DNA from: Verrucomicrobiia bacterium
GTDB taxonomy: Bacteria > Verrucomicrobiota > Verrucomicrobiia > Limisphaerales > Pedosphaeraceae
Direction of reading: 5' to 3'
Length of the DNA stretch: 64,000 nucleotides
NCBI GenBank assembly: GCA_036268055.1
Contig: DATAUW010000002.1
Span: 28,124-92,123, forward strand
The notes beneath the pieces are model-generated. The model ran no database searches. It was not told the DNA's origin and saw nothing but the letters and a program-made list of their open reading frames with translations. The position numbers were made by a program, and so were the translations under genes. Position 1 is the stretch's first letter, and the number at the start of each line of letters is the position of its first letter. Below, piece after piece: positions 6,088 to 61,528 of this stretch.

Positions 6088-6120
6088 AACTGAAAACTGA
6101 AAACTTGAAACTGAAAACTC
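6088..6120. repeat. Tandem heptamer array (tgaaaac)(tgaaaac)(ttgaaac)(tgaaaac), upstream of gltX
   Basis: Direct reading of ctgaaaactgaaaacttgaaactgaaaactc. Similar arrays occur at 58087-58122, 37318-37345, 12193-12215 and 13505-13530. Confidence 0.5.
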
Positions 6121-6231: not shown

Positions 6232-7578
6232 ATGAAAGTACGGGTAAGATTTGCTCCGAGTCCGACGGGTTTTTTGCACATCGGCGGCGCGCGAACGGCG
6301 TTGTTCAACTGGCTGTATGCGCGGCATACGGGCGGGACATTTGTATTGCGCGTCGAAGACACTGACGCGGCGCGCAACTCACAGGAGGCGGTGGATGTCA
6401 TCCTGAACGGCTTGCGCTGGCTGGGACTCGATTGGGACGAAGGCCCGATCAGCGGCGACGTGACCGGGCCGAGCAAGGGGGATCGCGGGCCGTATTTTCA
6501 GAGCCAGCGAAGCGAGAATTATAAATTGCGTGTGGAGGCATTGTTGTCGCACGGACTCGCGTACGAGCACGAAGGCGCGGTGAAATTCAGGATGCAGCGC
6601 GAACCGGTCGTCATCCCGGATTTGGTCGTGGGAAATGTGACGCGTGAATTGACCGACCGTGAAAAACTCGACCCGGATTTTGTGATCGTGCGCTCGGATG
6701 GTCAGCCGGTGTTTCATCTCGTGAACGTCATTGATGATTTGGAAATGGGCATCACGCACGTAATCCGCGGCGAAGATCATTTGAGCAACACCGCGAAGCA
6801 CATTGCGTTGTTCCGTGCGTTCGGCATCGAGCCGCCGAAGTATGCGCACATTCCGCTTATTTTGAATATTGACGGGTCGAAGATGAGCAAGCGCGATAAG
6901 GGCGCTTCACTGATGACGTATCTGGACGAAGGTTACGCGCCCGAAGCGGTGGTGAATTATTTGTCGCTGCTGGGGTGGTCACCCAAGGGCAATCGCGAGA
7001 AAGTGCCGATCAAGGAAGTCGTCGAGCTTTTTGATCTACCACAAATTTTGCGTCACAATTCCCGATTCGATCTGAATAAATTGCACTGGCTCAACGGCGA
7101 ATACATTCGTGAGATGACGCTGGACCGGTTTCACGAATTGGCGGTGCACGCGCTGGGGCGCCTCGGAATTGATACGAACAAGTATCCGCTGGATTATGTG
7201 AAGGCAGCGCTCGATACGTGCAAGGCGAAGGTGAAATTATTTTCCGAAGTGCCCACGTTTGCGGATTTTTATTTCAAGGACGTGATTGAATTGGACGCGG
7301 AAATGTTGAAAAAAGATTTCCCCGCCGAATTGAAACCGAAGCTGAAACATTTGCGCGATGCGCTCTCCATGTTGCTGAAGTTTGACTCGGACACATTGAA
7401 CCGGACGACGAAGGAAGTGGCGGGCCAACTCGGAGTGGGCATCGGCGTGCTGGTGCATCCAACGCGACTGGCATGCACCGGGCGAACGGTCGGACCGAGC
7501 TTGTATCACTTGATGGAGGTACTGGGAAAAGAGCGGGTGGTGGCGCGGTTTGATTGGGTATTGGGGATGATGGGGTAA
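6232..7578 (+). CDS. gltX: Glutamate--tRNA ligase
   Basis: 448 aa. The HIGH motif (PTGFLHIGGAR) and the KMSKS motif (KMSKR) are present. Family-level similarity along the whole length. Confidence 0.95.
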   Translation: MKVRVRFAPSPTGFLHIGGARTALFNWLYARHTGGTFVLRVEDTDAARNSQEAVDVILNGLRWLGLDWDEGPISGDVTGPSKGDRGPYFQSQRSENYKLRVEALLSHGLAYEHEGAVKFRMQREPVVIPDLVVGNVTRELTDREKLDPDFVIVRSDGQPVFHLVNVIDDLEMGITHVIRGEDHLSNTAKHIALFRAFGIEPPKYAHIPLILNIDGSKMSKRDKGASLMTYLDEGYAPEAVVNYLSLLGWSPKGNREKVPIKEVVELFDLPQILRHNSRFDLNKLHWLNGEYIREMTLDRFHELAVHALGRLGIDTNKYPLDYVKAALDTCKAKVKLFSEVPTFADFYFKDVIELDAEMLKKDFPAELKPKLKHLRDALSMLLKFDSDTLNRTTKEVAGQLGVGIGVLVHPTRLACTGRTVGPSLYHLMEVLGKERVVARFDWVLGMMG

Positions 7579-21852: not shown

Positions 21853-22038
21853 AACCATCGCATTTTTTACTTGTGTCCAGCGAAAAAATGTCATTACTTT
21901 AGTGGCCGTCCGAGAGCAGTGGCTTAGTGATCCGGAAATTGTCAGATGAAAGCTTAGCGCTATGACGATTTGAGACCTAACAACGGGAACGTTCACCAAT
22001 GCACGACTTCGCGGATAAACAACGAAAGTATCAAGCTA

Positions 22039-22404
22039 ATGGCGACCAAATTATTCGTCGGGAACCTTCCCTTCAGTGTCACCGAAAATGATCTGCAAGA
22101 TTATTTTGCGACGGCCGGCACAGTTATCGCAGTAAACATCATGCAAGATCGCGCCACCGGACGTTCGCGCGGCTTTGCCTTTGTCGAGATGGGGTCTCAA
22201 GCGGAAGCCGATTCGGCTATCCAGCAGTTTCATCAAAAGGAATTTCAAGGTCGTCCCTTGACCGTCAACGAGGCGCGTCCTCGTGAAGAACGTCCTCCCG
22301 GCGGCGGTGGCGGCGGATACGGTGGCGGCCGTGGCGGTGGCGGCGGCGGTGGAGATCGCCGTGGCGGCGGTGGTGGCGGTGGCGGCTATCGCGATCGTCG
22401 CTAA
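22039..22404 (+). CDS. RNA-binding protein with one RRM domain and a C-terminal Gly/Arg-rich tail
   Basis: RNP2 (LFVGNL) and RNP1 (RGFAFVEM) motifs. A GGGGYGGGRGGGG tail. The likely start is MATKLFV (22039) inside the longer track ORF. Confidence 0.85.
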   Translation: MATKLFVGNLPFSVTENDLQDYFATAGTVIAVNIMQDRATGRSRGFAFVEMGSQAEADSAIQQFHQKEFQGRPLTVNEARPREERPPGGGGGGYGGGRGGGGGGGDRRGGGGGGGGYRDRR

Positions 22405-22421
22405 GTTCACCTGAACTTTTC

Positions 22422-32064: not shown

Positions 32065-32574
32065 TCAAGTCGTCGCTAAATTGCCCAGCTTATTGGACAT
32101 CTGTTTGATCTCGTCGCGCAACAAGGCGGCCTGCTCAAAATTTTCGTCGTCCACGGCCTTGGAAAGTTTTTTCTGCAACGTCTTCAAACGCTCGGTCAAC
32201 TCGCGGCTCTGTTGAAGCGATTGCGGCACCTTGCCGACGTGGTGCGTGCCCTTGTGCATGGTCTTGAGCAACCCTTCGAGGCCCTCCGCGAAGGTCGCAT
32301 AACATTCCGCGCAACCGAGGCGTCCGGCTTTTTTGAAATCCGCTTGCGTGAAACCGCACTTGGGACATTTCAAATCCGCGCCGCCGGAGGCCGCTTCCAA
32401 TTCCTGCGAAGCGCCGAGGCCGAGCAAAAGATCGGCAAGCGAAAAGCCGGTGGGATCGTTGACGCCTTTTTGCTTGGCGCATTCTTCGCACAAATCTACC
32501 TTCTGCATCTTGTCGCCCTGAATCTGGGTCAGATGCACGGTGGCTTCTTTTTCTTTGCAAACACAACACAACAT
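32065..32574 (-). CDS. mcsA: Protein arginine kinase activator McsA (two CxxC zinc ribbons plus a UVR domain)
   Basis: 169 aa. CCVC..CEEC and CPKC..CAEC pairs. A C-terminal UVR-like helix (AALLRDEIKQM). Confidence 0.8.
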   Translation of the reverse strand: MLCCVCKEKEATVHLTQIQGDKMQKVDLCEECAKQKGVNDPTGFSLADLLLGLGASQELEAASGGADLKCPKCGFTQADFKKAGRLGCAECYATFAEGLEGLLKTMHKGTHHVGKVPQSLQQSRELTERLKTLQKKLSKAVDDENFEQAALLRDEIKQMSNKLGNLATT

Positions 32575-32578
32575 ACGG

Positions 32579-32743
32579 TCAATTTTTATCGCTTAACAAC
32601 TGCGCCAAATCTATTCCGGCGGGATTGTTCAATCCCTTTTTCCGGGCGCATTCTTCGCAGAAATCTTTCGCCCGCGCGGTGTCTCCCTGCACCTGGCTCA
32701 AGTGCACGGACGCTTCCTTCTCTTTACAGACGCAACACAGCAT
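32579..32743 (-). CDS. Mini-McsA. A 54-aa stand-alone zinc-ribbon paralogue of the McsA N-terminus.
   Basis: Manual translation gives MLCCVCKEKEASVHLSQVQGDTARAKDFCEECARKKGLNNPAGIDLAQLLSDKN. This is near-identical to McsA residues 1-50 (MLCCVCKEKEATVHLTQIQGD...CEECAKQKGVNDPTGFSLADLL). Its stop lies 4 nt before the mcsA start. It is below the ORF-track size cut-off. Confidence 0.5.
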   Translation of the reverse strand: MLCCVCKEKEASVHLSQVQGDTARAKDFCEECARKKGLNNPAGIDLAQLLSDKN

Positions 32744-32754
32744 ATCCTTGATAT

Positions 32755-33621
32755 TTATATCGGCTCACCGGAGCTATTAGTCAAGGTGTGGTAGGCCTTA
32801 ATCAGCTTTTGAGTCACGGGACCAGGCTTGCCGGTGCCGATGACGCGGCCATCAATTTTCACCACGGAAATCACTTCCGCACCGGTGCCGGTCAGGAAGC
32901 ATTCTTCCGCATTGAACATATCGTAACGCGTCAGGTTCGGCTCGTTTACGGTCAAACCAGCTTCGACCGCGAGATCCATCACCGCTTTGCGGGTGATGCC
33001 GTAAAGCGCGCCTGCCGAAAGCGGCGGGGTGGACAAAGTATTGCCATTGAGGATGAAGATATTGTCGCCAGTGCATTCCGCGACGTAACCCTCGGCGTTG
33101 AGCATGATGGCTTCTTCGACGCCGCCATTGTTCGCCTCGATTTTCGCGAGGATGTTGTTGAGATAATTAAGCGACTTGATCGCCGGATTGAGCGCGCTGT
33201 GCAGGTTGCGCGTTGTGGCCACGGTGATGATGTCCAGTCCGCGTTTGTAGAACGATTCAGGATAAAGCTGGATTTTGTCCGCGATGATGATGACGGACGG
33301 ATTTTTGCAGCGGTTGGGATTCAGTCCGAGCGTGCCCACGCCGCGTGTCACGACGAGGCGGATATAGCAATCACGCAATTTATTTCTGCGGCAGGTCTCG
33401 ACGACGGCTTTCATCATCTCGGCATGCGAGAGAGGAATGGTGAGCAGCAGTGCCTTGGCCGAGCAAAAAAGCCGGTCAATGTGTTCTTTCAAACGAAAGA
33501 CGCGGCCATTGTAAGCGCGAATTCCTTCAAAGATTCCATCGCCATAAAGCAAGCCGTGATCGAACACGGACACCTTGGCGTCCTTCTCTGCCACATATTT
33601 TCCGTCGAGATATATTTTCAT
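32755..33621 (-). CDS. ilvE: Branched-chain amino acid aminotransferase (class IV PLP enzyme)
   Basis: 288 aa. Family-level similarity (DHGLLYGDGIFEGIRAY, catalytic Lys region). Confidence 0.9.
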   Translation of the reverse strand: MKIYLDGKYVAEKDAKVSVFDHGLLYGDGIFEGIRAYNGRVFRLKEHIDRLFCSAKALLLTIPLSHAEMMKAVVETCRRNKLRDCYIRLVVTRGVGTLGLNPNRCKNPSVIIIADKIQLYPESFYKRGLDIITVATTRNLHSALNPAIKSLNYLNNILAKIEANNGGVEEAIMLNAEGYVAECTGDNIFILNGNTLSTPPLSAGALYGITRKAVMDLAVEAGLTVNEPNLTRYDMFNAEECFLTGTGAEVISVVKIDGRVIGTGKPGPVTQKLIKAYHTLTNSSGEPI

Positions 33622-33698: not shown

Positions 33699-33775
33699 GA
33701 ATCCGTGTTCCTCCGTGTTCCATCCGTGGCCAAAATTTCTTTCCCCCAGTGGCCGTCCGCAAGGATCTTCGTGGT
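33699..33775. repeat. Junction of two dispersed repeat families. A family A copy in reverse orientation (gaatccgtgttcctccgtgttccatccgtggccaaaa) lies immediately next to the family B core (tttcccccagtggccgtccgcaaggatct).
   Basis: Sequence matches to 12945-12983 (reverse complement) and to 53155-53185. Confidence 0.45.
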
Positions 33776-37273: not shown

Positions 37274-37381
37274 GTATGTGAATTATCTGTAACTCAAAAG
37301 TTTTTACAAAGCTTTCTTGCTCCTGCGGAAAACTTGAAACTGAACGCTTTAAACTTTCCGCAATTCGGATTAACTACATCC

Positions 37382-49473: not shown

Positions 49474-49621
49474 GGAGAGCGTAGATAGAGTTTAGAGTTG
49501 CGGTATAAGCCGGGGGCGGCAGTCTTAGCCGTGCGTTGCTGCGAGTCATAGACTCGCGGTCCATTAGGAGTATGAAACGGTTGCAAGTTTGGGGCGCGGG
49601 GTGTTATATCGGGGTAATTCT

Positions 49622-50515
49622 ATGGGCACAGATAATAATTCAGGGCAGGGGATTAAACTTCCGGAAGGCGTCACTTTAACCAAGGGTTCGGGCGGCTTGC
49701 CGATGGTAAGCATCAAGGCAGGGCAAAGTGTGGCGGAGATTTATTTGCACGGGGCGCATGTGACCCATTTTCAAAAACAAGGCGAGGCGCCGCTTTTGTG
49801 GATGAGCGCGAAGAGCAAGTTCGATGAGGCGAGCGCGATTCGCGGGGGCATCCCGGTAATTTTTCCGTGGTTCGGCGGGCGCACCGGTTGTCCAGCGCAT
49901 GGATTTGCACGCGTGAAGAATTGGATTTTGGCGGGAGCGTCGAAGGGCGCGAATGGAGCGGTGACGGTTCATTTGCATTTGCCGGAGACGAATGAGGCGG
50001 GCTTCGCCAATTTTGAGGCGGATTATTTCGTGACGGTGAGTGAGGTTTTGGAAGTCAAATTAACGGTGACAAATAAATCTTCCAGTGAGGAATTCAAATA
50101 TGAAGATTGTTTGCACAGTTACTTTACCATCGGTGACATCGGCTCAGTCGCGGTGAAAGGACTCAAGGGTGTGCGCTATTTGGACAAGGTGGATGGCGGC
50201 GCGGAGAAGACGGAGACGAATGATGCGATCGTGATTTCGTCCGAGGTGGACCGGGTTTATATGGAGACCAAGGCAACGGTGGAGATTCACGATGGCAAAT
50301 TGCACCGGAAAATTTTGGTGGAGAAAACCGGTTCAGCGGCGACGGTGGTTTGGAATCCGTGGATAGCGAAATCCAAGGCGATGGCGGATTTTGGCGATGA
50401 AGAATATCACACGATGGTTTGCGTGGAGTCGGGCAACGTCAGCAAAAATAGTGTGACGCTGGCGCCGGGAAAAACGGCCACGCTAACGGCCAGGTTGTCG
50501 AGCGCGCCTTTGTAA
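49622..50515 (+). CDS. D-hexose-6-phosphate mutarotase (aldose 1-epimerase family, YeaD-like)
   Basis: GIPVIFPWFG...HGFAR and downstream conserved blocks. The start at 49622 is preferred. Confidence 0.85.
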   Translation: MGTDNNSGQGIKLPEGVTLTKGSGGLPMVSIKAGQSVAEIYLHGAHVTHFQKQGEAPLLWMSAKSKFDEASAIRGGIPVIFPWFGGRTGCPAHGFARVKNWILAGASKGANGAVTVHLHLPETNEAGFANFEADYFVTVSEVLEVKLTVTNKSSSEEFKYEDCLHSYFTIGDIGSVAVKGLKGVRYLDKVDGGAEKTETNDAIVISSEVDRVYMETKATVEIHDGKLHRKILVEKTGSAATVVWNPWIAKSKAMADFGDEEYHTMVCVESGNVSKNSVTLAPGKTATLTARLSSAPL

Positions 50516-50596
50516 TTGGGTTTTCCAGCACAATACCAAAGCTGTTGGTGTTAAATTTGAGAAACGGTTAAAACCGTTTCTTGCATACGTTGGGAT

Positions 50597-50775
50597 TTTC
50601 CCCTAACTGAAGTTAGGGATTAATGAGAAGTGTTGGGCAAGTAGGTGAGGGTTGGTTCCATAAGCGGATTTCTTTCGTCCCTTCGGGACTTGATTTGCAA
50701 TGGACGCAAACCCAGCAATAAATTGCTGGGCAAATATCTGCCGTCCCTGCGGGACTTCGGACGGGGAGCGTCAGC
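50597..50775 (+). repeat. Structured ~180-nt repeat element, copy 1 (candidate ncRNA or MITE). It contains a 7-bp-stem/UGAA-loop hairpin, two gtccc-N3/4-gggac hairpins, and the 20-nt perfect palindrome cccagcaataaattgctggg.
   Basis: About 80% identical to 60270-60445. Both copies lie in convergent intergenic spacers. Confidence 0.55.
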
Positions 50776-50887
50776 TCCGTCCTGCGCGCGTTGGAATCTT
50801 CCTGCCGGACTGGGGCGAGACGTTTATAGTTATGCTCTTCCATCAAGGACGGTTACGCGCGCCGCTTGTAGCTTATCTTATAAAATT

Positions 50888-52483
50888 CTAGTGCGGTGCG
50901 GCCTTGGGACTGCCCTGCCATTCCAAAACTTGTTTTTCGGCGAGGAGTTGGGCCTGGAGTTTGGCGACGTCAATTTTTTGCACCGCCACTTTATCATTGA
51001 TCGCTTCGCAAGCGGCAGCGGCGGAGGATTGACCGAGCACCATGAAAACCGGTTCCATACGAATGGAGCCGTAAGCGATGTGCGTTGAGGAAAGGCAGAC
51101 GGGGACGAAAAGATTTTCGCACTCGGACACTTTCGGCACGATGGAACGATAGGCGATTTGATAGGGTGGGAAGCCGCCGATTTGAGTATCGCCTTCATTT
51201 TCGACGCGGCCATTTTTTACGATGCGCTGGCAGTTGTGCGAATCCATCGTGTAGGCGGCGAGGCCGATGGCGTCGGGAAGTTTGGTCGAGTCGCGGCAAT
51301 TATTTTCCGTCATGACGTAATCAGAAATCATGCGGCGCGCCTCGCGGATGTAAAGTTGATGGGGCCAGCCGCCGGTGTCGGTGAATTCATCTTTGGCCAG
51401 GCCCCATGATTGCATGTAGCGGCGCATGGTTTCGGGAACGCGCGGGCTGGTCGCGAGAAAGTAGAGGAAACCGCGCGTGTAATCTTCGTGTTCGCGAAAG
51501 ATCTGTTCACGTCGCGTGTAATTCGCCTCGGGATAATCGTAACTCGCGCCAATAAAATCAGTGGAGAAACCGCCGTTGTTGTTGATGTCGGTTTTGCCGT
51601 TCGGCATCGGCTGGATGTGCATGAACTCGCCAAGCTTGGGGTTTTTGCCGGCGGCGACAAGGGCTTCGAGGTAACGCGCGAGTAGTTCGTAGCGCGCGGG
51701 ATCGTAATTGGCAGGCGCGGCGATGGGAATTTTGTTGGTGGGATTTTGCGTGAGGCAGAGGCGGAAATTGTACGCTTGCACGCAACGGTCACCGGCACCG
51801 GGCACGCCGCCATCGCCGGGTTGAACCAGGGGAATCAAGCCGCTGGTTGGGTCGCCGGGTTTCACGTAGGGATCTACGGCAATGGTGAATTGATGCTTGG
51901 GCGTTTGGGGGCGGACGCCATCGAGGGTTTCGTGATATTGCGAATTGGGTTCACGCCCGACGAAATAGGAAACGCCGGCGCGCGCCATGAGGTCGCCTTC
52001 ATAGCTGGCATCAATGAACATTTTCGCGCGAAAAATATTGCCATTTTCCATCACGATTTCCGTGATGCGCGCGCCGTCTTTTTTTACGGAGGCAAGGCGT
52101 TGTTGAAAATAGACGGGCACTTTGGTTTCGTGCGCCATTTTGACGAAGATATTTTCGGCGACGCTAGGCTCGAAGGACCATTGTTCCTCCTTGTGATAAT
52201 GGCGGCCCATGCGCTGATAGAATTCGCGCGAGAGACCGCCGATGGCGGCTTTGTTGCCGATGTCGGTTTGGCTGAGGCCGCCAGAACTCATGCCGCCGAG
52301 ATGCGAACCGAATTCGGTGAGGACGACAGATTTGCCAAGGCGCGCGGTTTCAACGGCGGCGATGACTCCGCCGGCAGTGCCGTCGTAAACGCAAACGTCG
52401 GCGGTGATGATTTCAGCGGCGGAATTGTGCGCAGCGAGCGCGGACGCGGCGCAGAACAAAAACGCGCGCCAGAATTTTTTCAT
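50888..52483 (-). CDS. Secreted FAD-dependent oxidoreductase (FAD_oxidored family)
   Basis: Signal peptide MKKFWRAFLFCAASALAA. FAD-binding dinucleotide motif VCVYDGTAGGVIAAVETAR. The ORF-track N-terminal extension to 52579 was rejected. Confidence 0.7.
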   Translation of the reverse strand: MKKFWRAFLFCAASALAAHNSAAEIITADVCVYDGTAGGVIAAVETARLGKSVVLTEFGSHLGGMSSGGLSQTDIGNKAAIGGLSREFYQRMGRHYHKEEQWSFEPSVAENIFVKMAHETKVPVYFQQRLASVKKDGARITEIVMENGNIFRAKMFIDASYEGDLMARAGVSYFVGREPNSQYHETLDGVRPQTPKHQFTIAVDPYVKPGDPTSGLIPLVQPGDGGVPGAGDRCVQAYNFRLCLTQNPTNKIPIAAPANYDPARYELLARYLEALVAAGKNPKLGEFMHIQPMPNGKTDINNNGGFSTDFIGASYDYPEANYTRREQIFREHEDYTRGFLYFLATSPRVPETMRRYMQSWGLAKDEFTDTGGWPHQLYIREARRMISDYVMTENNCRDSTKLPDAIGLAAYTMDSHNCQRIVKNGRVENEGDTQIGGFPPYQIAYRSIVPKVSECENLFVPVCLSSTHIAYGSIRMEPVFMVLGQSSAAAACEAINDKVAVQKIDVAKLQAQLLAEKQVLEWQGSPKAAPH

Positions 52484-53001
52484 TTGGGGGAGGGACGTGA
52501 ATGAGGGGCTTCGGACTTGGCTTTGGCATTGGCGGCGGACTGGTCTTTCATGGGGCGAAAATTTCCCTGTTCGCAGCATTGCACAAAACCTTCAGTGACG
52601 GATTTCAATTCCTCCCAGCGGCCGCGGATGTCGGCGGCTTCACTGGCGACGATTTGGTTGTCGGCAACGGCGGTGGCGATGACAGCGAGGAGGTCGGCGA
52701 ATTCCTGGATGATTTCATTGGTGGCGGGAATGAGAAATTCCTGGTGAGCATTATGCGTCTTGGGATTCTTGATGAAGAATCCGCCGTTGCGCTGGCAGAG
52801 CCATTGGACGATGCGCAGATCGCCGGTGCATTTTTGGAGGGCGTCAATGCGATCGAGGGGATTGGCGGTTCCGCTGCCGACGGTGGCCTCGGGTGGCTCA
52901 GCCCATTTGTAAATCATGGAGAGCGAAAGGCTCAACTCGGCGGCGACTTGTTTGGCGCTGCATTTCTGAAAAACTTCGCGCAATAACTCGTGAGATTGCA
53001 T
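52480..53001 (-). CDS. Hypothetical protein, possibly a helix-turn-helix DNA-binding regulator
   Basis: 173 aa. The segment QVAAELSLSLSMIYKWAEP resembles an HTH. No confident family assignment. Confidence 0.35.
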   Translation of the reverse strand: MQSHELLREVFQKCSAKQVAAELSLSLSMIYKWAEPPEATVGSGTANPLDRIDALQKCTGDLRIVQWLCQRNGGFFIKNPKTHNAHQEFLIPATNEIIQEFADLLAVIATAVADNQIVASEAADIRGRWEELKSVTEGFVQCCEQGNFRPMKDQSAANAKAKSEAPHSRPSPK

Positions 53002-53090
53002 GGGAAACTAAAATGCAGGGAGCGGTGGGAATTGCAAGCCAGAAGGGCGTGTGGTGTATTCGTGAGCGTTGGGGTTTTCGGTGAATTAGA

Positions 53091-53204
53091 TTTGACGCAG
53101 AGGCGCAGAGCGGGGAAAGAAATGAGACGAGGATGAAGGGATATTATTCATGACTCTTTTTCCCAGTGGCCGTCCGCAAGGACCTCTGTGCCTCTGCGTC
53201 AAAA
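53091..53204. mobile_element. MITE-like non-autonomous element (~114 bp) with 20-nt perfect TIRs tttgacgcagaggcgcagag / ctctgtgcctctgcgtcaaa
   Basis: TIRs read directly from the sequence. The internal core tttcccagtggccgtccgcaagga recurs at 33745. The left TIR plus an octamer expansion recurs at 1048-1090. No coding capacity. Confidence 0.5.
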
Positions 53205-53393
53205 ATGATTTGGAATGATGGCGTGATTGCTTCGATGCGGGTTATAAACGCGGGATGAAATTATAAATGATTTTGAATCGGGCGCGTTGTATCAAATGGA
53301 GCATGCGAAGCGGAGAGGATTTGGCGGCTTGAAATTCCTTGCTGGGCAAATGGATTTCGCGGATAAGTAAAGAAAACGAACAGGCGGGTATTT

Positions 53394-58086: not shown

Positions 58087-58122
58087 GCGGGGAAGTTTCA
58101 AGTTTGAAGTTTCAAGTTTTCA
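58087..58122. repeat. Heptamer array (minus-strand reading: tgaaaac ttgaaac ttcaaac ttgaaac), upstream of sixA
   Basis: Direct reading. Related to the 6088-6120 array. Confidence 0.45.
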
Positions 58123-58286
58123 GTTGGGACGGCGGAGCGGCAGTTCCGCCCTACCGCGCGGTGGATTTCCGAATGCGGTGGTAAAGATCGAGAGTTGATA
58201 GGTGCGGAAATGAGTTGAGGCAGGTTGCGTGTGGGATTGACTTCTGTTGCGTGGAGACGGAATGATTGCGGGAACACAATTCACCC

Positions 58287-59549: not shown

Positions 59550-60035
59550 ATGAACAAAATCATCGCCGCCTGGCTGATTGGTCTCGCACTGATTTTGCCA
59601 CAGTTCGGCGCGCGGTCGGAGGAGGCATCGCCGGGCGATGAAATCATCGGCGTGTGGCACACGACGGGTGATCGCGGCGATGTAAAAATCTTCAAGCGAG
59701 ATGGCCGTTACTTCGGAGAGGTGTTAAACATCGCCGAGCCGAATTGGCCGGCGAATGACAAGCACGGCATGGGCGGCAAGCCCAAGAACGACCGCTATAA
59801 TCCCAATCCAAAACTACGCGATCGTCCGGTGATCGGGATCGAACTGATGACGGAGTTTGTCTATGCGCGAAAAAATCTGTGGGACGAGGGCAAAATCTAT
59901 GATCCCGAAACGGGCAAGACTTATAAGTGCAAAATGATTTTGAAATCGCCGAACAAGCTTGAAGTGCATGGATATATCGGGATTTCACTGTTTGGCCGGA
60001 CGGTGACTTGGACGCGGGCGGAGGAGACGAAGTAA
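59550..60035 (+). CDS. DUF2147-domain secreted protein
   Basis: Signal peptide. GVWHTTGDRG...KIYDPETGKTYKCKMIL...GRTVTWTR matches the DUF2147 pattern. Confidence 0.7.
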   Translation: MNKIIAAWLIGLALILPQFGARSEEASPGDEIIGVWHTTGDRGDVKIFKRDGRYFGEVLNIAEPNWPANDKHGMGGKPKNDRYNPNPKLRDRPVIGIELMTEFVYARKNLWDEGKIYDPETGKTYKCKMILKSPNKLEVHGYIGISLFGRTVTWTRAEETK

Positions 60036-60269
60036 GTTGCCGTATGAAAGCGAAAACTGAAAAGCGAAAAACTACTGACGCCATTGAGATTGTTGACCGG
60101 ATGGCAGGGGACAGTCCCGAACTAGCCAATTCGACGAACGGGCACAGAGAGGAAAACGAGATTAGGGATTGTTGGAATATGGATTGGGTGAAATTTTTGT
60201 TGGTTCGGTTTTGTTCCAAGGAACGGGCCCGCCTCGCTTTGCTCGGGATAGATTTTTTAAGGAGCGGCA

Positions 60270-60445
60270 TTTCCCCCGGCTGAAGCCGGGGGTTAATGAG
60301 AAGCGATTGGTTTTTGCGGGCGATGGAAGAGTGGCGGCGGAATTTCTTTCGTCCCTGCGGGACTTAATTTATGACGGATGGGAACCCAGCAATAAATTGC
60401 TGGGCTAAGTTCTGTCGTCCCTGAGGGGACTTTGGACGGCCGAGC
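60270..60445 (+). repeat. Structured ~180-nt repeat element, copy 2 (candidate ncRNA or MITE)
   Basis: Paralogue of 50597-50775. The 5' hairpin ccccggc-tgaa-gccgggg retains pairing through 3 compensatory changes relative to copy 1. Confidence 0.55.
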
Positions 60446-60748
60446 GGCGGTTCCGCACTGGCATGCCATGACATTTTCCGGCGTCCTTTCAGGACGCGAG
60501 AGAAAAGGGGATTGGCGTTCCGGGGGTGTTCGTCGCGCTGCGCGCTTCTCGACCGCCCGGCTAATTTTCGTCAACCCTCCGGGTTGAAAAAATCGGAAAT
60601 GCGATCAGTAAAAGCCGCCGCCGCAATATGACGCACGATCTGGCGGCAGATGCGCTTGCACCACAAATTTTATGTCAGCGCCAAATGATATTCATGACCG
60701 CAGATGCAGTTCAAAGTTGGGTTGAGATTGGAACGGCCAAAGCACCCA

Positions 60749-61528
60749 TTATTTTTTTAATTGCGAAGAAAGAATGCAGAGATGAGTTCCGTCTTTAATG
60801 TCTTTATCGGTTCCTCCTAGTAGAACAAGGGCGCCGCCTTTTGGCACTATTGCCCGGCAAGCAGCGTCAAATTTCAGTTCCGGAGCAGGGGCGGTGTTGG
60901 ACGGTGGCAGGCTCCAGCCGCTAATATAGACTTCCGTGAGAAGGTTAATGTCCTTGCCCGAGACTCGGGGACAAATACTAATAATTGGTCCTATAGACAC
61001 GGGCTTACCCCCAAAATTAGAAGTGGTCACCGATTGAATTTGAGCTGAGCTTCCAGCGGCAGTGATAATTTCGAGATGCTCCATTCCGTCCACATGGTCC
61101 GTACGCTCAACGCGATCTATCAAAGTCTTCGCTTGAGCAGATGAAAGAATCCAGGCACGAGTGCCATTGGCATTGGTTGTGATCGCTGCACCCAAATCCA
61201 ATAGTTCAATCGGAGACGAGAGCGTGAACAACGATGCTTTCACGGATATGCCGGGTTGTTTGGGGGTGAAACGCGACCAAAGCCGCAATATCCATAGGGG
61301 AAGCTTTCCTTCGATCCTTCTCCACCCTCCATCGTAAGCTTGATGAAACTCCGGTCCGGTAAGCCAGACAATTTGTTGCGCCGGCCTTTTGCGGACGGTA
61401 AAAAACGAAATGGAGATTGTGGCGATGATGATGACAACAAAGGCGAATCGCGCGGCGCGAAATCGGGACCGTTTTTGCGGTTTGGTCACGGCAGTGGTTT
61501 CCACCGGTAAAAGGGTTTCGTGGTTCAT
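60749..61528 (-). CDS. Hypothetical membrane-anchored protein
   Basis: 259 aa with a single TM near the N-terminus. No recognised domain. Confidence 0.4.
   Translation of the reverse strand: MNHETLLPVETTAVTKPQKRSRFRAARFAFVVIIIATISISFFTVRKRPAQQIVWLTGPEFHQAYDGGWRRIEGKLPLWILRLWSRFTPKQPGISVKASLFTLSSPIELLDLGAAITTNANGTRAWILSSAQAKTLIDRVERTDHVDGMEHLEIITAAGSSAQIQSVTTSNFGGKPVSIGPIISICPRVSGKDINLLTEVYISGWSLPPSNTAPAPELKFDAACRAIVPKGGALVLLGGTDKDIKDGTHLCILSSQLKK

What the first reader, a model, noticed from the sequence alone, without database searches (positions are those of the whole stretch)
50597..50775. Novel ~180-nt structured repeat family (two copies) in convergent intergenic spacers, a candidate small RNA
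Two ~80%-identical copies (50597-50775 and 60270-60445) each contain the same elements in order:
- a 5' hairpin with a UGAA tetraloop
- the conserved string ttaatgagaag
- a hairpin gtccc-N3-gggac
- the 20-nt perfect palindrome cccagcaataaattgctggg
- a second gtccc-N3/4-gggac hairpin
- a GC-rich 3' stem

Both copies sit between the 3' ends of convergent genes (mutarotase / FAD oxidoreductase, and DUF2147 / hypothetical). Neither has a credible ORF. The overlapping track ORFs 50645-51088 and 60169-60408 are simply the repeat read in one frame. This dense nested secondary structure is not explained by any annotated feature.
Basis: seen in the sequence. Interest (0 to 1): 0.75.

Follow-up and report, generated by a model that had tools for sequence, protein, structure and literature searches.

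The report
REP-like palindromic repeats, not sRNA
The two look-alike structured stretches are copies of a known, widespread three-hairpin DNA repeat (its core is Rfam's "Acido-Lenti-1 RNA") that in other bacteria brackets a small tyrosine transposase gene, so they are most likely mobile-element relics rather than a new small RNA.

Summary
The two copies are real (50597-50775 and 60270-60445, about 80% identical), but they are neither novel nor a single unit.

- **Known core.** Rfam RF01687 (Acido-Lenti-1) hits both cores above its gathering score.
- **True unit.** The conserved unit is an ~89-nt three-hairpin module, at window 50670-50757 and 60344-60432. A third, degenerate module lies at 60476-60587.
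- **Family.** A capped scan returned 120 loci from six phyla (by record title), holding 213 modules: 56 head-to-head inverted doublets (against 2 in the opposite order) and 86 singletons.
- **Associated gene.** Modules bracket a ~150-aa IS200-like Y1 (HUH) transposase gene. Five of five homologues chosen by protein alone show the same geometry.
- **DNA, not RNA.** Stems covary with Watson-Crick pairs only. G:T and A:C mismatches are equally rare (13 against 14). There is no orientation bias relative to neighbouring genes, no promoter and no target-site duplication.
- **Insertion.** Four syntenic relatives lack the module between the genes flanking copy A. In one the spacer is 6 nt.
- **Composite.** The 5' hairpin with TTAATGAGAAG is the end of a second, unrelated palindromic repeat. 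The linker between it and the module is non-homologous.

Verdict: an ordinary REP/REPIN-RAYT-like (TIRtron-like) DNA repeat. The useful by-product is that Acido-Lenti-1 looks mis-typed as an sRNA.

The parts
50670..50757 (+). Module A: one complete three-hairpin REP-like module (hp2 GTCCC-TTC-GGGAC 50677-50689; hp1 CCCAGCAA-TAAA-TTGCTGGG 50711-50730; hp3 GTCCC-TGC-GGGAC 50743-50755). A singleton with no inverted partner.
   Evidence: Covariance model R1: 82.1 bits, E 2e-17. nhmmer: 63 bits. Only this ~90-nt stretch is shared with other genomes.
50711..50756 (+). Rfam RF01687 Acido-Lenti-1 match (hp1, 12-nt linker, hp3) inside module A.
   Evidence: 47.9 bits against a gathering score of 37.
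60344..60432 (+). Module B: second complete three-hairpin module (hp2 60351-60363; hp1 60385-60404; hp3 60417-60430).
   Evidence: R1: 79.0 bits, E 1e-16. Rfam RF01687: 46.4 bits at 60385-60431.
60476..60587 (+). Third, degenerate module in direct tandem after module B (hp2 GTCCT-TTC-AGGAC, a long hp1 CCGGG...CCCGG followed by CTAATTTTCGTC, hp3 AACCC-TCC-GGGTT).
   Evidence: R1: 31.8 bits, E 6.8e-6. Sub-threshold RF01687 pieces at 60473-60495 and 60553-60586.
50561..50630 (+). Right half of 'element X', a second and unrelated palindromic repeat: inner hairpin GAAACGG-TTAAAA-CCGTTTC (50561-50580), terminal hairpin CCCCTAAC-TGAA-GTTAGGG (50600-50618), and end sequence TTAATGAGAAG (50620-50630).
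   Evidence: Aligns with L125-L131 and L083, where the full element is a ~165-nt inverted repeat ending ...GGGGTTAATGAGA and carries no Acido-Lenti-1 module. No Rfam family matches it.
60273..60303 (+). End of element X at locus B: terminal hairpin CCCCCGGC-TGAA-GCCGGGGG (60273-60292) plus TTAATGAGAAG (60293-60303). The inner AACCGTT hairpin is absent.
   Evidence: 79% identical to 50597-50630, z 5.7. Matches the pattern used in the metagenome scan. Weak hp1-like hits only (9.7 bits; 18 bits, E 0.15).
50631..50667 (+). Linker between the X end and module A. It is not homologous to the 38-nt linker 60304-60341 of copy B.
   Evidence: 58% identity after global alignment, equal to shuffled sequence (z -0.5).
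50759..50782 (+). GC-rich 3' stem GGACGGGGAGC-GTCA-GCTCCGTCC. It is robust in copy A only and is not a family feature.
   Evidence: Read from the sequence and seen in the fold. Similarity to copy B is marginal (68%, z 1.7). Nothing is conserved beyond the module's outer end across the family. blastn of the 3' parts finds nothing elsewhere.
49589..50515 (+). Aldose 1-epimerase gene. Its 3' end faces copy A.
   Evidence: PF01263, E 6.5e-41. Convergent synteny with the FAD oxidoreductase is conserved in L122, L123, L124/L140 and L141.
50888..52579 (-). FAD-dependent oxidoreductase gene, convergent with the epimerase. The true start is probably internal, because the database protein P0001 is 531 aa.
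   Evidence: PF12831, E 4e-114. P0001 is 100% identical and is labelled Verrucomicrobiae MAG.
59550..60035 (+). DUF2147 gene upstream of copy B.
   Evidence: PF09917, E 2.5e-33.
60749..61528 (-). Hypothetical 259-aa ORF converging on locus B.
   Evidence: ORF list. No Pfam family.

Best explanation
The two window elements are non-autonomous, REP-like palindromic DNA repeats.

Each carries one ~89-nt module of three hairpins: hp2 (TTCxxxCGTCCC-n3-GGGACT), about 20 nt of spacer, hp1 (CCCAGCnn-TGAA/TAAA-nnGCTGGGCTA), a 12-nt linker, and hp3 (CGTCCC-n3-5-GGGAC). The hp1-hp3 part is what Rfam calls the Acido-Lenti-1 RNA motif.

Shown here:
- In Acidobacteriota and Planctomycetota, two such modules in inverted orientation, with hp2 inward, tightly bracket a ~150-aa IS200-like Y1/HUH transposase gene. 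The protein carries the TnpA-Y1 subclass 1.2 signature (H-u-H, WQ, YIxxQxxHH).
- The same bracket without the gene is dispersed as head-to-head doublets, singletons and occasional tandem arrays.

Inferred:
- By analogy with IS608/ISDra2 TnpA and RAYT/REPIN systems, the Y1 enzyme recognises the hairpins on single-stranded DNA at replication forks and cuts and rejoins next to them. This would spread or maintain the repeats in trans without target-site duplications.
- The window copies are singletons (plus one decayed tandem copy) that landed in gene-poor convergent spacers of a Pedosphaera-like Verrucomicrobiae genome. They are probably immobile relics.
- When read through from the upstream gene, their hairpins may incidentally act as terminators or 3'-end stabilisers. 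hp2 followed by TTGATTT/TTAATTT scores as terminator-like in both copies.

The 5' hairpin plus TTAATGAGAAG is not part of this element. It is the terminal piece of a second palindromic repeat family (element X) that happens to lie upstream in both spacers.
For: 1. Known core. RF01687 hits at 47.9 and 46.4 bits against a cutoff of 37.

2. Family. The record titles name Acidobacteriota, Planctomycetota, Verrucomicrobiota, Nitrospirales, Sumerlaeota and Hydrogenedentales.

3. True unit. hp2 was not in the search pattern, yet it is present in 107 of 136 copies and covaries (GTCCC/GGGAC to GCCCC/GGGGC).

4. Structure. On 150 model hits, 98.8% of cells are paired against 89.9% in shuffles (0 of 500 reach it). 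14 of 18 pairs show compensatory change. The covariation score is 0.250 against 0.073. Slid-partner controls reach at most 48%.

5. DNA rather than RNA.
- In the 51 copies not pre-selected by the pattern there are 896 Watson-Crick cells, 5 G:T and 9 A:C. Overall the count is 13 G:T against 14 A:C.
- Adjacent pairs are 56 (-,+) against 2 (+,-).
- Singleton orientation relative to co-directional neighbours is 15 same against 20 opposite.

6. Transposase link.
- The bracketed ORFs match PF01797 at E 1e-23 to 1e-25 and NCBIfam IS200/IS605 at 56-66 bits.
- The closest PDB entries are ISDra2 and IS608 TnpA.
- H55, H57, W95, Q96, Y115, Q119, H122 and H123 are invariant.
- 11 of 121 DNA-selected loci carry the gene. 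All 7 with both flanks visible have the (-)module-gene-(+)module layout.

7. Reciprocal test. In 5 of 5 homologues chosen by protein alone, a (-) module ends 16-23 nt before the start codon and a (+) module begins 2-12 nt after the stop, at 68-84 bits. Rfam's own model hits the flanks in 9 of 9 loci.

8. Insertion polymorphism. The orthologous epimerase/oxidoreductase spacer is 6, 120, 163 or 243 nt in four relatives, against 372 nt in the window. None of them has a module.

9. No target-site duplication and no conserved outer flank. No promoter-like site.

10. Precedent. Di Nocera 2013 (PMC3733652) describes TIRtrons/TIRYTs, including a repeat family around one K. versatilis Y1 gene. Quentin 2018 (PMC6006769) defines subclass 1.2.
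Against: - No Y1 gene lies in the 64-kb window, and I could not scan the rest of this genome. A cognate enzyme in this organism is therefore unproven. None of the Verrucomicrobiota loci sampled shows a bracketed Y1 gene. The one nearby gene, in L120, is a distant homologue and is not bracketed.
- No transposition, cleavage or binding has been shown for this family. The mechanism is by analogy.
- The enzyme belongs to class 1 (IS200-like), not to the class 2 RAYTs for which REP mobilisation has been studied. Quentin 2018 lists subclass 1.2 as having no REPs.
- The near-identical arm sequence across phyla could also reflect a conserved host function or horizontal spread.
- Transcription cannot be assessed, so an added RNA-level role is not excluded.
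- The alignment used for pair counts was fitted to the model, and part of the sample was selected by a pattern that fixes the outer stem bases.
- The gene-context statistics rest on crude ORF calling.
- The equal linker length (37/38 nt) between the X end and the module in both copies is unexplained.
Confidence: 0.8

Rival explanations
1. It is a genuine trans-acting small RNA gene, as Rfam types Acido-Lenti-1 and. On this view the hairpins are RNA structure and the repeat copies are paralogous sRNA genes.
For: - Rfam classifies RF01687 as 'Gene; sRNA'.
- Covariation in the stems is strong.
- Copy B folds better than shuffled sequence (z -4.2).
- Both window copies lie on the same strand as the upstream gene.
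Against: - There is no G:U excess over A:C (13 against 14).
- Most copies are inverted doublets, so both strands carry the motif.
- Singletons show no orientation bias.
- There is no promoter-like site.
- Copy A folds no better than shuffled sequence (z -1.3).
- The element is absent from orthologous spacers in four relatives.
- The motif brackets a transposase gene with fixed geometry.
Confidence: 0.05
2. Its main role is as a cis-acting RNA or DNA punctuation element at gene 3' ends, for example a transcription terminator or a barrier to 3'-exonucleases, as reported for some REPs and MITEs. Any mobility would be secondary.
For: - Both window copies lie downstream of convergent genes.
- hp2 followed by a T-rich run scores as terminator-like on the + strand in both copies.
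- Divergent, promoter-side spacers are depleted in the family: 10 of 92, against 20 convergent and 62 co-directional.
Against: - The T-rich tail after hp2 is peculiar to the window copies. The family consensus there is GGGACTCnnn.
- Singletons in co-directional spacers are as often antisense as sense (20 against 15).
- The spacer can be 6 nt in a relative with no element at all.
- Depletion from promoter regions is equally expected from purifying selection against insertions there.
Confidence: 0.1
3. It is a miniature derivative (PATE/MITE) of an active, autonomous IS200/IS605-type insertion sequence. On this view it is not part of a domesticated, single-copy RAYT-like system.
For: - The enzyme scores above the NCBIfam IS200/IS605 cutoff.
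- It is closest to ISDra2 and IS608 TnpA.
- There are no target-site duplications.
- Many homologues sit on short contigs, as repeats that break assemblies do.
Against: - IS200/IS605 ends carry hairpins in direct orientation, not long inverted repeats. Here the arms are inverted.
- The gene keeps the same neighbours (acyltransferase; S18-MutS) in two assemblies that are about 80% identical at the DNA level.
- The Y1 proteins found are 46-76% identical to one another, not near-identical copies.
- Subclass 1.2 is described as low-copy and lacking IS properties (PMC6006769).
Confidence: 0.1
4. The whole ~180-nt composite (X end, 37/38-nt linker, module) is one functional unit that was duplicated as a block.
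For: - Both copies share the same order and orientation.
- The linker length is almost the same, 37 against 38 nt.
- The composite has been found only in this genome.
Against: - The linker sequence is at chance-level identity.
- Element X occurs without modules in 7 metagenome loci.
- Modules occur without X in the other 118 module-bearing loci. Only L083 has both, about 300 nt apart.
- Copy A has X's inner hairpin and copy B does not.
Confidence: 0.05

Closest known systems
Rfam RF01687, Acido-Lenti-1 RNA motif (Weinberg et al. 2010, Genome Biol 11:R31, PMC2864571)
   Same: The hp1, 12-nt linker and hp3 core of both window copies scores above the family's gathering cutoff. The conserved bases match (CCyAGC..GCUrGGCUA...CGUnCC). 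The family was already known from Acidobacteria and the PVC group. The original alignment already shows Lentisphaera copies 200 nt apart.
   Different: Rfam models 46 nt and types the family as an sRNA of unknown function. The conserved unit found here is 89 nt with a third hairpin (hp2). It behaves as a DNA palindrome and brackets a Y1 transposase gene. I found no paper that makes that link.
REP/REPIN-RAYT systems ('REPtrons'; Nunvar 2010; Bertels & Rainey 2011, PMC3116915; Ton-Hoang 2012)
   Same: A small Y1/HUH gene is flanked by inverted palindromic repeats. The same repeats are dispersed in extragenic space as inverted doublets and decaying singlets. The gene sits at a fixed locus, and there are no target-site duplications.
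   Different: - Each arm is a 90-nt three-hairpin module, not a single 20-40-nt REP.
- There is no GTAG 'foot'.
- The enzyme has the class 1 Y motif YIxxQxxHH, not the class 2 RAYT motif Y---NP.
- The NCBIfam REP_Tyr_transpos model scores only 23 bits against a cutoff of 80.
- The arm sequence is nearly the same across phyla, whereas REPs are usually lineage-specific.
TIRtrons/TIRYTs (Di Nocera, De Gregorio & Rocco 2013, PMC3733652)
   Same: The concept is the same: tyrosine transposase genes flanked by long inverted repeats that can also form moderately abundant dispersed families, often as dimers. The paper defines an Acidobacteria-specific TIRYT group and notes that the repeats around K. 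versatilis ORF1552 form a family. K. versatilis (NC_008009) is also in Weinberg's Acido-Lenti-1 alignment.
   Different: I could not verify that the K. versatilis ORF1552 repeats are this module, because that genome is not available here. The paper does not connect them to Rfam, to hp1-hp3 or to other phyla.
TnpA-Y1 subclass 1.2 (Quentin et al. 2018, PMC6006769)
   Same: The signature matches: HuH DH[IV]H-like, WQ, Y---Q--HH, about 148 aa, a conserved C-terminal tail and low copy number.
   Different: That paper lists the subclass as mostly Cyanobacteria and Bacteroidetes with 'REP: no'. Here, members from Acidobacteriota and Planctomycetota are consistently bracketed by repeats.
IS200/IS605 insertion sequences (IS608, ISDra2) and their PATE derivatives
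   Same: They have the closest solved enzymes. Their recognition sites are hairpins on single-stranded DNA. They leave no target-site duplication.
   Different: IS ends are asymmetric, with LE and RE hairpins on the same strand. They are multi-copy and often carry tnpB. None of this is seen here.

Membership tests
Rfam RF01687 Acido-Lenti-1 | Covariance-model score at or above the curated gathering score (37 bits) | tested here: met
   47.9 bits (50711-50756) and 46.4 bits (60385-60431).
Rfam RF01687 Acido-Lenti-1 | 8-bp hairpin with a 4-nt loop, a 12-nt linker starting CUA, and a 5-bp hairpin | tested here: met
   cmscan alignments. Copy A has CAA instead of CUA after hp1.
Rfam RF01687 Acido-Lenti-1 | Functions as an RNA (typed 'Gene; sRNA') | tested here: inconclusive
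   No expression data. The sequence evidence points the other way: G:T 13 against A:C 14, copies on both strands, no orientation bias, no promoter.
REP/REPIN-RAYT (REPtron) | Y1/HUH transposase gene flanked by inverted copies of the repeat | tested here: met
   Met for the family: 7 of 7 DNA-selected loci with both flanks visible, and 5 of 5 protein-selected loci. Not met inside the window, where tblastn finds no Y1 gene.
REP/REPIN-RAYT (REPtron) | Dispersed extragenic copies, mainly as inverted doublets (REPINs) plus singlets | tested here: met
   56 (-,+) doublets with gaps of 2-47 nt, 2 (+,-) pairs, 7 tandem pairs and 86 singletons. Divergent spacers are depleted.
REP/REPIN-RAYT (REPtron) | Conserved GTAG (or GT[AG]G) tetranucleotide at the 5' foot of the REP hairpin | tested here: not met
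   The consensus flanks are TTCAGyC before hp2 and CUAuu after hp1. There is no GTAG.
REP/REPIN-RAYT (REPtron) | Class 2 RAYT protein signature (Y---NP), or a match to NCBIfam NF047646 REP_Tyr_transpos | tested here: not met
   The Y motif is YIxxQxxHH. NF047646 scores 23 bits against a cutoff of 80.
REP/REPIN-RAYT (REPtron) | Single-copy, vertically inherited gene at a fixed locus | tested here: inconclusive
   L132 and L133 have the same neighbours at about 80% DNA identity. Per-genome copy number could not be counted.
TIRtron/TIRYT (Di Nocera 2013) | Tyrosine transposase gene flanked by long inverted repeats unrelated to GTAG REPs, with copies forming a dispersed family | tested here: met
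   The arms are about 90 nt, inverted and dispersed. Definition taken from PMC3733652.
IS200/IS605 insertion sequence or PATE | PF01797 Y1 transposase | tested here: met
   E 1e-23 to 1e-25. NF033573 scores 56-66 bits against a cutoff of 55.
IS200/IS605 insertion sequence or PATE | Asymmetric ends: LE and RE subterminal hairpins on the same strand, with no terminal inverted repeats | tested here: not met
   The flanks are inverted copies of the same module.
IS200/IS605 insertion sequence or PATE | Several near-identical copies of the gene per genome | not testable with these tools
   Whole genomes cannot be scanned. The homologues seen are 46-76% identical to one another.
DDE-type MITE (e.g. 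Correia/NEMIS, ERIC, RUP) | Terminal inverted repeats bounded by a fixed-length target-site duplication | tested here: not met
   The longest direct match between dimer flanks averages 4.66 nt against 4.21 in controls. There is no fixed length, and the inverted comparison shows the same small excess.
Bacterial sRNA gene | Own promoter and terminator, with conservation at an orthologous locus | tested here: not met
   No promoter-like site. The element is absent from the orthologous spacer in four relatives.

The most novel reading that the evidence does not exclude
The Rfam 'Acido-Lenti-1 sRNA' is not an RNA gene. It is the single-stranded-DNA substrate of the orphan TnpA-Y1 subclass 1.2, a group described as having no associated repeats. 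Together they would form a REPIN-RAYT-like partnership with unusually large three-hairpin arms. The recognition sequence is almost invariant across at least six phyla, which implies either very long vertical co-inheritance under strong constraint or repeated horizontal spread. I found no paper making this link.
Probability: 0.6. Interest if true: 0.45.

Novelty: new member of a known kind. Interest (0 to 1): 0.3.

Why it matters
For this window it matters little. The two elements are relics of an ordinary class of bacterial selfish or domesticated repeat and need no new biology.

The family-level by-product has some value in four ways:
- It gives a concrete, testable identity to an Rfam motif that has been annotated as an 'sRNA of unknown function' since 2010. 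That label still leads authors to speculate about regulatory ncRNAs (for example the 2026 Tannerella preprint).
- It supplies candidate DNA substrates for a Y1 transposase subclass that has none assigned.
- It extends REPIN/RAYT-type systems to Acidobacteriota, Planctomycetota and their neighbours.
- It warns genome annotators that RF01687 hits mark repeats and assembly-breaking sites, not RNA genes.

Tried and rejected
- **Viral contigs.** The core pattern gave one non-palindromic chance match, L001. L028 (Phenylobacterium) is likewise a chance match with no model hit.
- **Exact-protein look-up.** The window's 563-aa ORF was not on record because the true start is internal. This was solved through P0001.
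- **Single-sequence folding.** Copy A z = -1.3 and copy B z = -4.2. This is not informative on its own.
- **CGTC-tagged REP superfamily.** I considered it because hp2 and hp3 begin with CGTC. I did not adopt it. Those families have A/T at the first two stem positions, CCA tails and no transposase.
- **Quentin class 3.** I considered it because of its taxa (Planctomycetes, Acidobacteria). I rejected it because its motifs are NHVH, W[TA] and YV..EQ, whereas these proteins have WQ and YIxxQxxHH.
- **Empty-site test for copy B.** Synteny with the window ends before that locus in L140 and L141, so it could not be tested.
- **Target-site duplications and conserved outer flanks.** None found.
- **Y1 gene in the window.** tblastn finds none.
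- **Element X.** No Rfam match at E <= 0.01, and no obvious associated gene in the short contigs.
- **Inverted partner for the window modules.** The model finds none. The opposite-strand hits at the same coordinates are palindrome shadows at 21-25 bits.
Full report
**1. The observation**

Reading the two regions and aligning them confirms two look-alike stretches. They share, in order:
- a hairpin with a TGAA loop;
- the string TTAATGAGAAG;
- a GTCCC-N3-GGGAC hairpin;
- the hairpin CCCAGCAA-TAAA-TTGCTGGG;
- a second GTCCC-N3/4-GGGAC hairpin;
- GC-rich sequence.

The flanking genes are as described: aldose 1-epimerase converging on FAD oxidoreductase, and DUF2147 converging on a hypothetical gene. 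The ORFs that overlap the repeats have no family match.

Four details need correction.
- The '20-nt perfect palindrome' is an 8-bp stem with a 4-nt loop.
- The 3' GC stem is convincing only in copy A.
- Similarity between the copies sits in two separate blocks: 79% (z 5.7) for the first hairpin plus TTAATGAGAAG, and 84% (z 9.1) for the three-hairpin part. The 37/38-nt linker between them is at chance.
- A third, degenerate copy of the three-hairpin part follows copy B at 60476-60587.

**2. The core is a described family**

Rfam places 50711-50756 and 60385-60431 in RF01687, Acido-Lenti-1, at 47.9 and 46.4 bits against a cutoff of 37. A permissive scan of both spacers finds no other family.

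Weinberg et al. 2010 reported the motif from Acidobacteria and Lentisphaerae with 89 representatives. They typed it as a probable non-coding RNA and noted only that it sometimes lies near group II introns. Their alignment already lists Lentisphaera copies exactly 200 nt apart.

**3. The family and its true unit**

An exact-pattern scan of one genome per species (CCCAGC-N8-GCTGGGC-N10-13-CGTCCC) stopped at its 120-locus limit. The record titles name Acidobacteriota, Planctomycetota (including Phycisphaerae and Brocadiaceae), Verrucomicrobiota, Nitrospirales, Sumerlaeota and Hydrogenedentales.

Printing the flanks and aligning them shows a further hairpin, hp2 (TTCAGyCGTCCC-tac-GGGACTC), about 20 nt upstream of the Rfam core in most copies. 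hp2 was not part of the search pattern. The conserved unit is therefore an ~89-nt module: hp2, hp1, hp3.

blastn shows that only this part of the window copies (about 50666-50757) is shared with other genomes.

A covariance model built on 86 modules scores the two window modules at 82 and 79 bits. It also finds the degenerate third module.

**4. Structure is conserved, as DNA**

On 150 model hits:

| Measure | Observed | Control |
|---|---|---|
| Cells paired | 98.8% | 89.9% in shuffles (0 of 500 reach it); at most 48% with partners slid |
| Pairs with compensatory change | 14 of 18 | 5.3 in shuffles |
| Covariation score | 0.250 | 0.073 in shuffles |

The replacements are almost all Watson-Crick to Watson-Crick. 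In the 51 copies not pre-selected by my pattern there are 896 Watson-Crick cells, 5 G:T and 9 A:C. Over both sets the count is 13 G:T against 14 A:C. An RNA helix tolerates G:U but not A:C. Equal rarity of the two is what a palindrome maintained on both DNA strands gives.

Caveat: this alignment was fitted to the model's structure.

**5. Arrangement**

nhmmer finds 213 modules in 119 loci:

| Arrangement | Count |
|---|---|
| Adjacent pairs, (-,+), hp2 inward, gaps 2-47 nt | 56 |
| Adjacent pairs, (+,-) | 2 |
| Tandem pairs | 7 |
| Singletons | 86 |

With crude gene calls, module clusters lie in 20 convergent, 62 co-directional and 10 divergent spacers. Singletons in co-directional spacers are sense 15 times and antisense 20 times. 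Neither window locus has a promoter-like site. hp2 followed by a T-rich run scores as terminator-like in both, but that tail is not a family feature.

**6. The associated gene**

Several copies lie directly after an ORF ending ...EFLxxLKKxxIxYDERYxWD. These ORFs are 145-162 aa.
- They match PF01797 (Y1_Tnp) at E 1e-23 to 1e-25.
- They pass the NCBIfam IS200/IS605 cutoff, but not the REP-associated tyrosine transposase model.
- They are closest to the ISDra2 and IS608 TnpA structures.
- H55, H57 (HUH), W95, Q96, Y115, Q119, H122 and H123 are invariant.

This is the signature of TnpA-Y1 subclass 1.2 of Quentin et al. 2018: DH[IV]H, WQ, YIKNQKEHH, about 148 aa, low copy. That paper lists the subclass as lacking associated REPs.

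Of the 121 loci chosen by DNA alone, 11 carry such a gene. All 7 with both flanks visible have the layout (-)module, gene, (+)module, with hp2 next to the gene.

The reciprocal test is clean. I chose five homologues only by protein similarity and contig length. All five have a (-) module ending 16-23 nt before the start codon and a (+) module starting 2-12 nt after the stop, at 68-84 bits. Rfam's own RF01687 model hits these flanks above its cutoff in nine of nine loci.

Two assemblies that are about 80% identical at the DNA level hold the gene between the same neighbours (acyltransferase; S18-MutS). The whole cassette is inverted between them. This fits a fixed-locus gene flanked by recombining inverted repeats better than a hopping insertion sequence.

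Dimer flanks show no target-site duplication and no conserved outer sequence.

**7. The window copies are insertions**

The FAD oxidoreductase identifies the source as a Verrucomicrobiae MAG with Pedosphaera-like relatives. Four relatives (88, 84, 79 and 79% protein identity) keep the convergent epimerase/oxidoreductase pair. Their spacers are 243, 6, 120 and 163 nt, against 372 nt in the window. None holds a module. One (L141) holds a different long palindrome instead. Copy A is therefore a lineage-specific arrival in a tolerant spacer, not a conserved gene.

The same test for copy B failed because synteny ends before that locus.

**8. The 5' part is another element**

A metagenome scan for the first hairpin plus TTAATGAG found seven loci, five from one sample. 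In these the motif is the end of a ~165-nt near-perfect palindrome. Its ends read CTCTCATTAACCCC...GGGGTTAATGAGAG, with two AACCGTT-type hairpins inside, and no Acido-Lenti-1 module follows.

Window copy A carries the right half of this 'element X', including the hairpin GAAACGG-TTAAAA-CCGTTTC at 50561-50580. Copy B carries only the terminal hairpin and tail. Element X has no Rfam match.

**9. Mechanism**

*Shown:* the modules are conserved DNA palindromes. They bracket a Y1/HUH gene. The bracket without the gene is dispersed as doublets and singlets. The window copies are insertions.

*Inferred from the established chemistry of IS608/ISDra2 TnpA and E. coli TnpA-REP:* the enzyme recognises the hairpins on single-stranded DNA, cleaves beside them through a 5'-phosphotyrosine intermediate, and rejoins the strands. 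This would move or copy the doublets without target duplications. Singletons such as those in the window would be decaying halves.

Any terminator or mRNA-stabilising effect would be a by-product. No experiment supports any of this for this family, and no cognate gene has yet been seen in the window's organism.

**10. Comparison and novelty**

It works like a REP/REPIN-RAYT system, and it fits Di Nocera's broader 'TIRtron' definition. It fails two defining features of canonical REPtrons: the GTAG foot and the class 2 RAYT signature. It also fails the asymmetric-ends feature of IS200/IS605.

The core is already in Rfam. In the held literature I found no paper linking Acido-Lenti-1 to a transposase. 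Di Nocera's note on K. versatilis ORF1552 may describe the same repeats.

For the window the finding is ordinary. The re-typing of RF01687 and the assignment of repeats to subclass 1.2 are modest, testable additions.

Noticed in passing
window 50561-50630 and 60273-60303; L125-L131; L083 (- strand, about 466-765); L130 1416-1580: 'Element X' is a second palindromic repeat family, about 165 nt long. Its ends read CTCTCATTAACCCC...GGGGTTAATGAGAG, and it has two internal AACCGTT-N-AACGGTT hairpins. Five copies come from one metagenome sample (Ga0315280). It has no Rfam match, and no associated gene was seen in the short contigs.
   Followed up: partly
L132 1385-2057 versus L133 1385-2126: Two assemblies about 80% identical at the DNA level hold the Y1 gene between the same neighbours (acyltransferase; ribosomal protein S18-MutS). 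The whole module-gene-module cassette is inverted relative to those neighbours, as expected from recombination between the inverted arms.
   Followed up: partly
L141 11644-11759 (spacer between FAD oxidoreductase and aldose epimerase); also L083 (- strand) near 7490-7530: A different long palindrome (ACCCAAGGT.GGCCC...GGGCC.ACCTTGGGCT, followed by a small AATCCC-GTT-GGGATT hairpin) occupies the spacer that holds copy A in the window. It gives only a weak hit to the module model (14.8 bits). It may be a sister repeat family with a longer hp1, like the window's third module.
   Followed up: no
L104 895-1287; L014 6075-6266; Lentisphaera araneosa copies in Weinberg's alignment: Direct tandem arrays of modules also occur: a 151-nt period three times in L104, about 82 nt in L014, and 200 nt in Lentisphaera. 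The window's locus B (60344-60587) is a decayed example. How tandem arrays arise in a system dominated by inverted doublets is unexplained.
   Followed up: no
window 50631-50667 versus 60304-60341: The linker between the X end and the module has almost the same length in both copies (37 and 38 nt), but its sequence identity is at chance level. Both linkers are G+T-rich and end in GCGGAwTTTCTTTC. The cause is open: coincidence, a spacing constraint, or targeted insertion.
   Followed up: partly
window 21885-21912, 33732-33773, 53155-53190 (with inverted repeat 53084-53110 / 53184-53210): Another short repeated motif (...CAGTGGCCGTCCGCAAGGA...) occurs three times in the window. One copy lies inside a 27-nt inverted repeat pair (repeat finder families D10, D13 and I5).
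   Followed up: no
window 6088-6119, 37328-37359, 58090-58125: A low-complexity GAAACT/GAAAAC-type repeat (AACTGAAAACTTGAAACTGAAAACT) is found at three sites in both orientations (I1, I6, I10).
   Followed up: no
window 32447-32758: Two direct 143-nt repeats, 73% identical and spaced 169 nt start to start (family D2). Not examined.
   Followed up: no
window 22299-22406: A run of GGC/GGT-rich 15-nt-phased repeats, probably coding for a Gly/Arg-rich tail just before a stop codon (family D1).
   Followed up: no
proteins P0121-P0240: Most close homologues of the Y1 protein sit on very short contigs (about 0.6-4 kb). This is consistent with the flanking repeats breaking metagenome assemblies. JGI labels many of them 'REP element-mobilizing transposase RayT', whereas NCBI labels them IS200/IS605 family transposases.
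   Followed up: no
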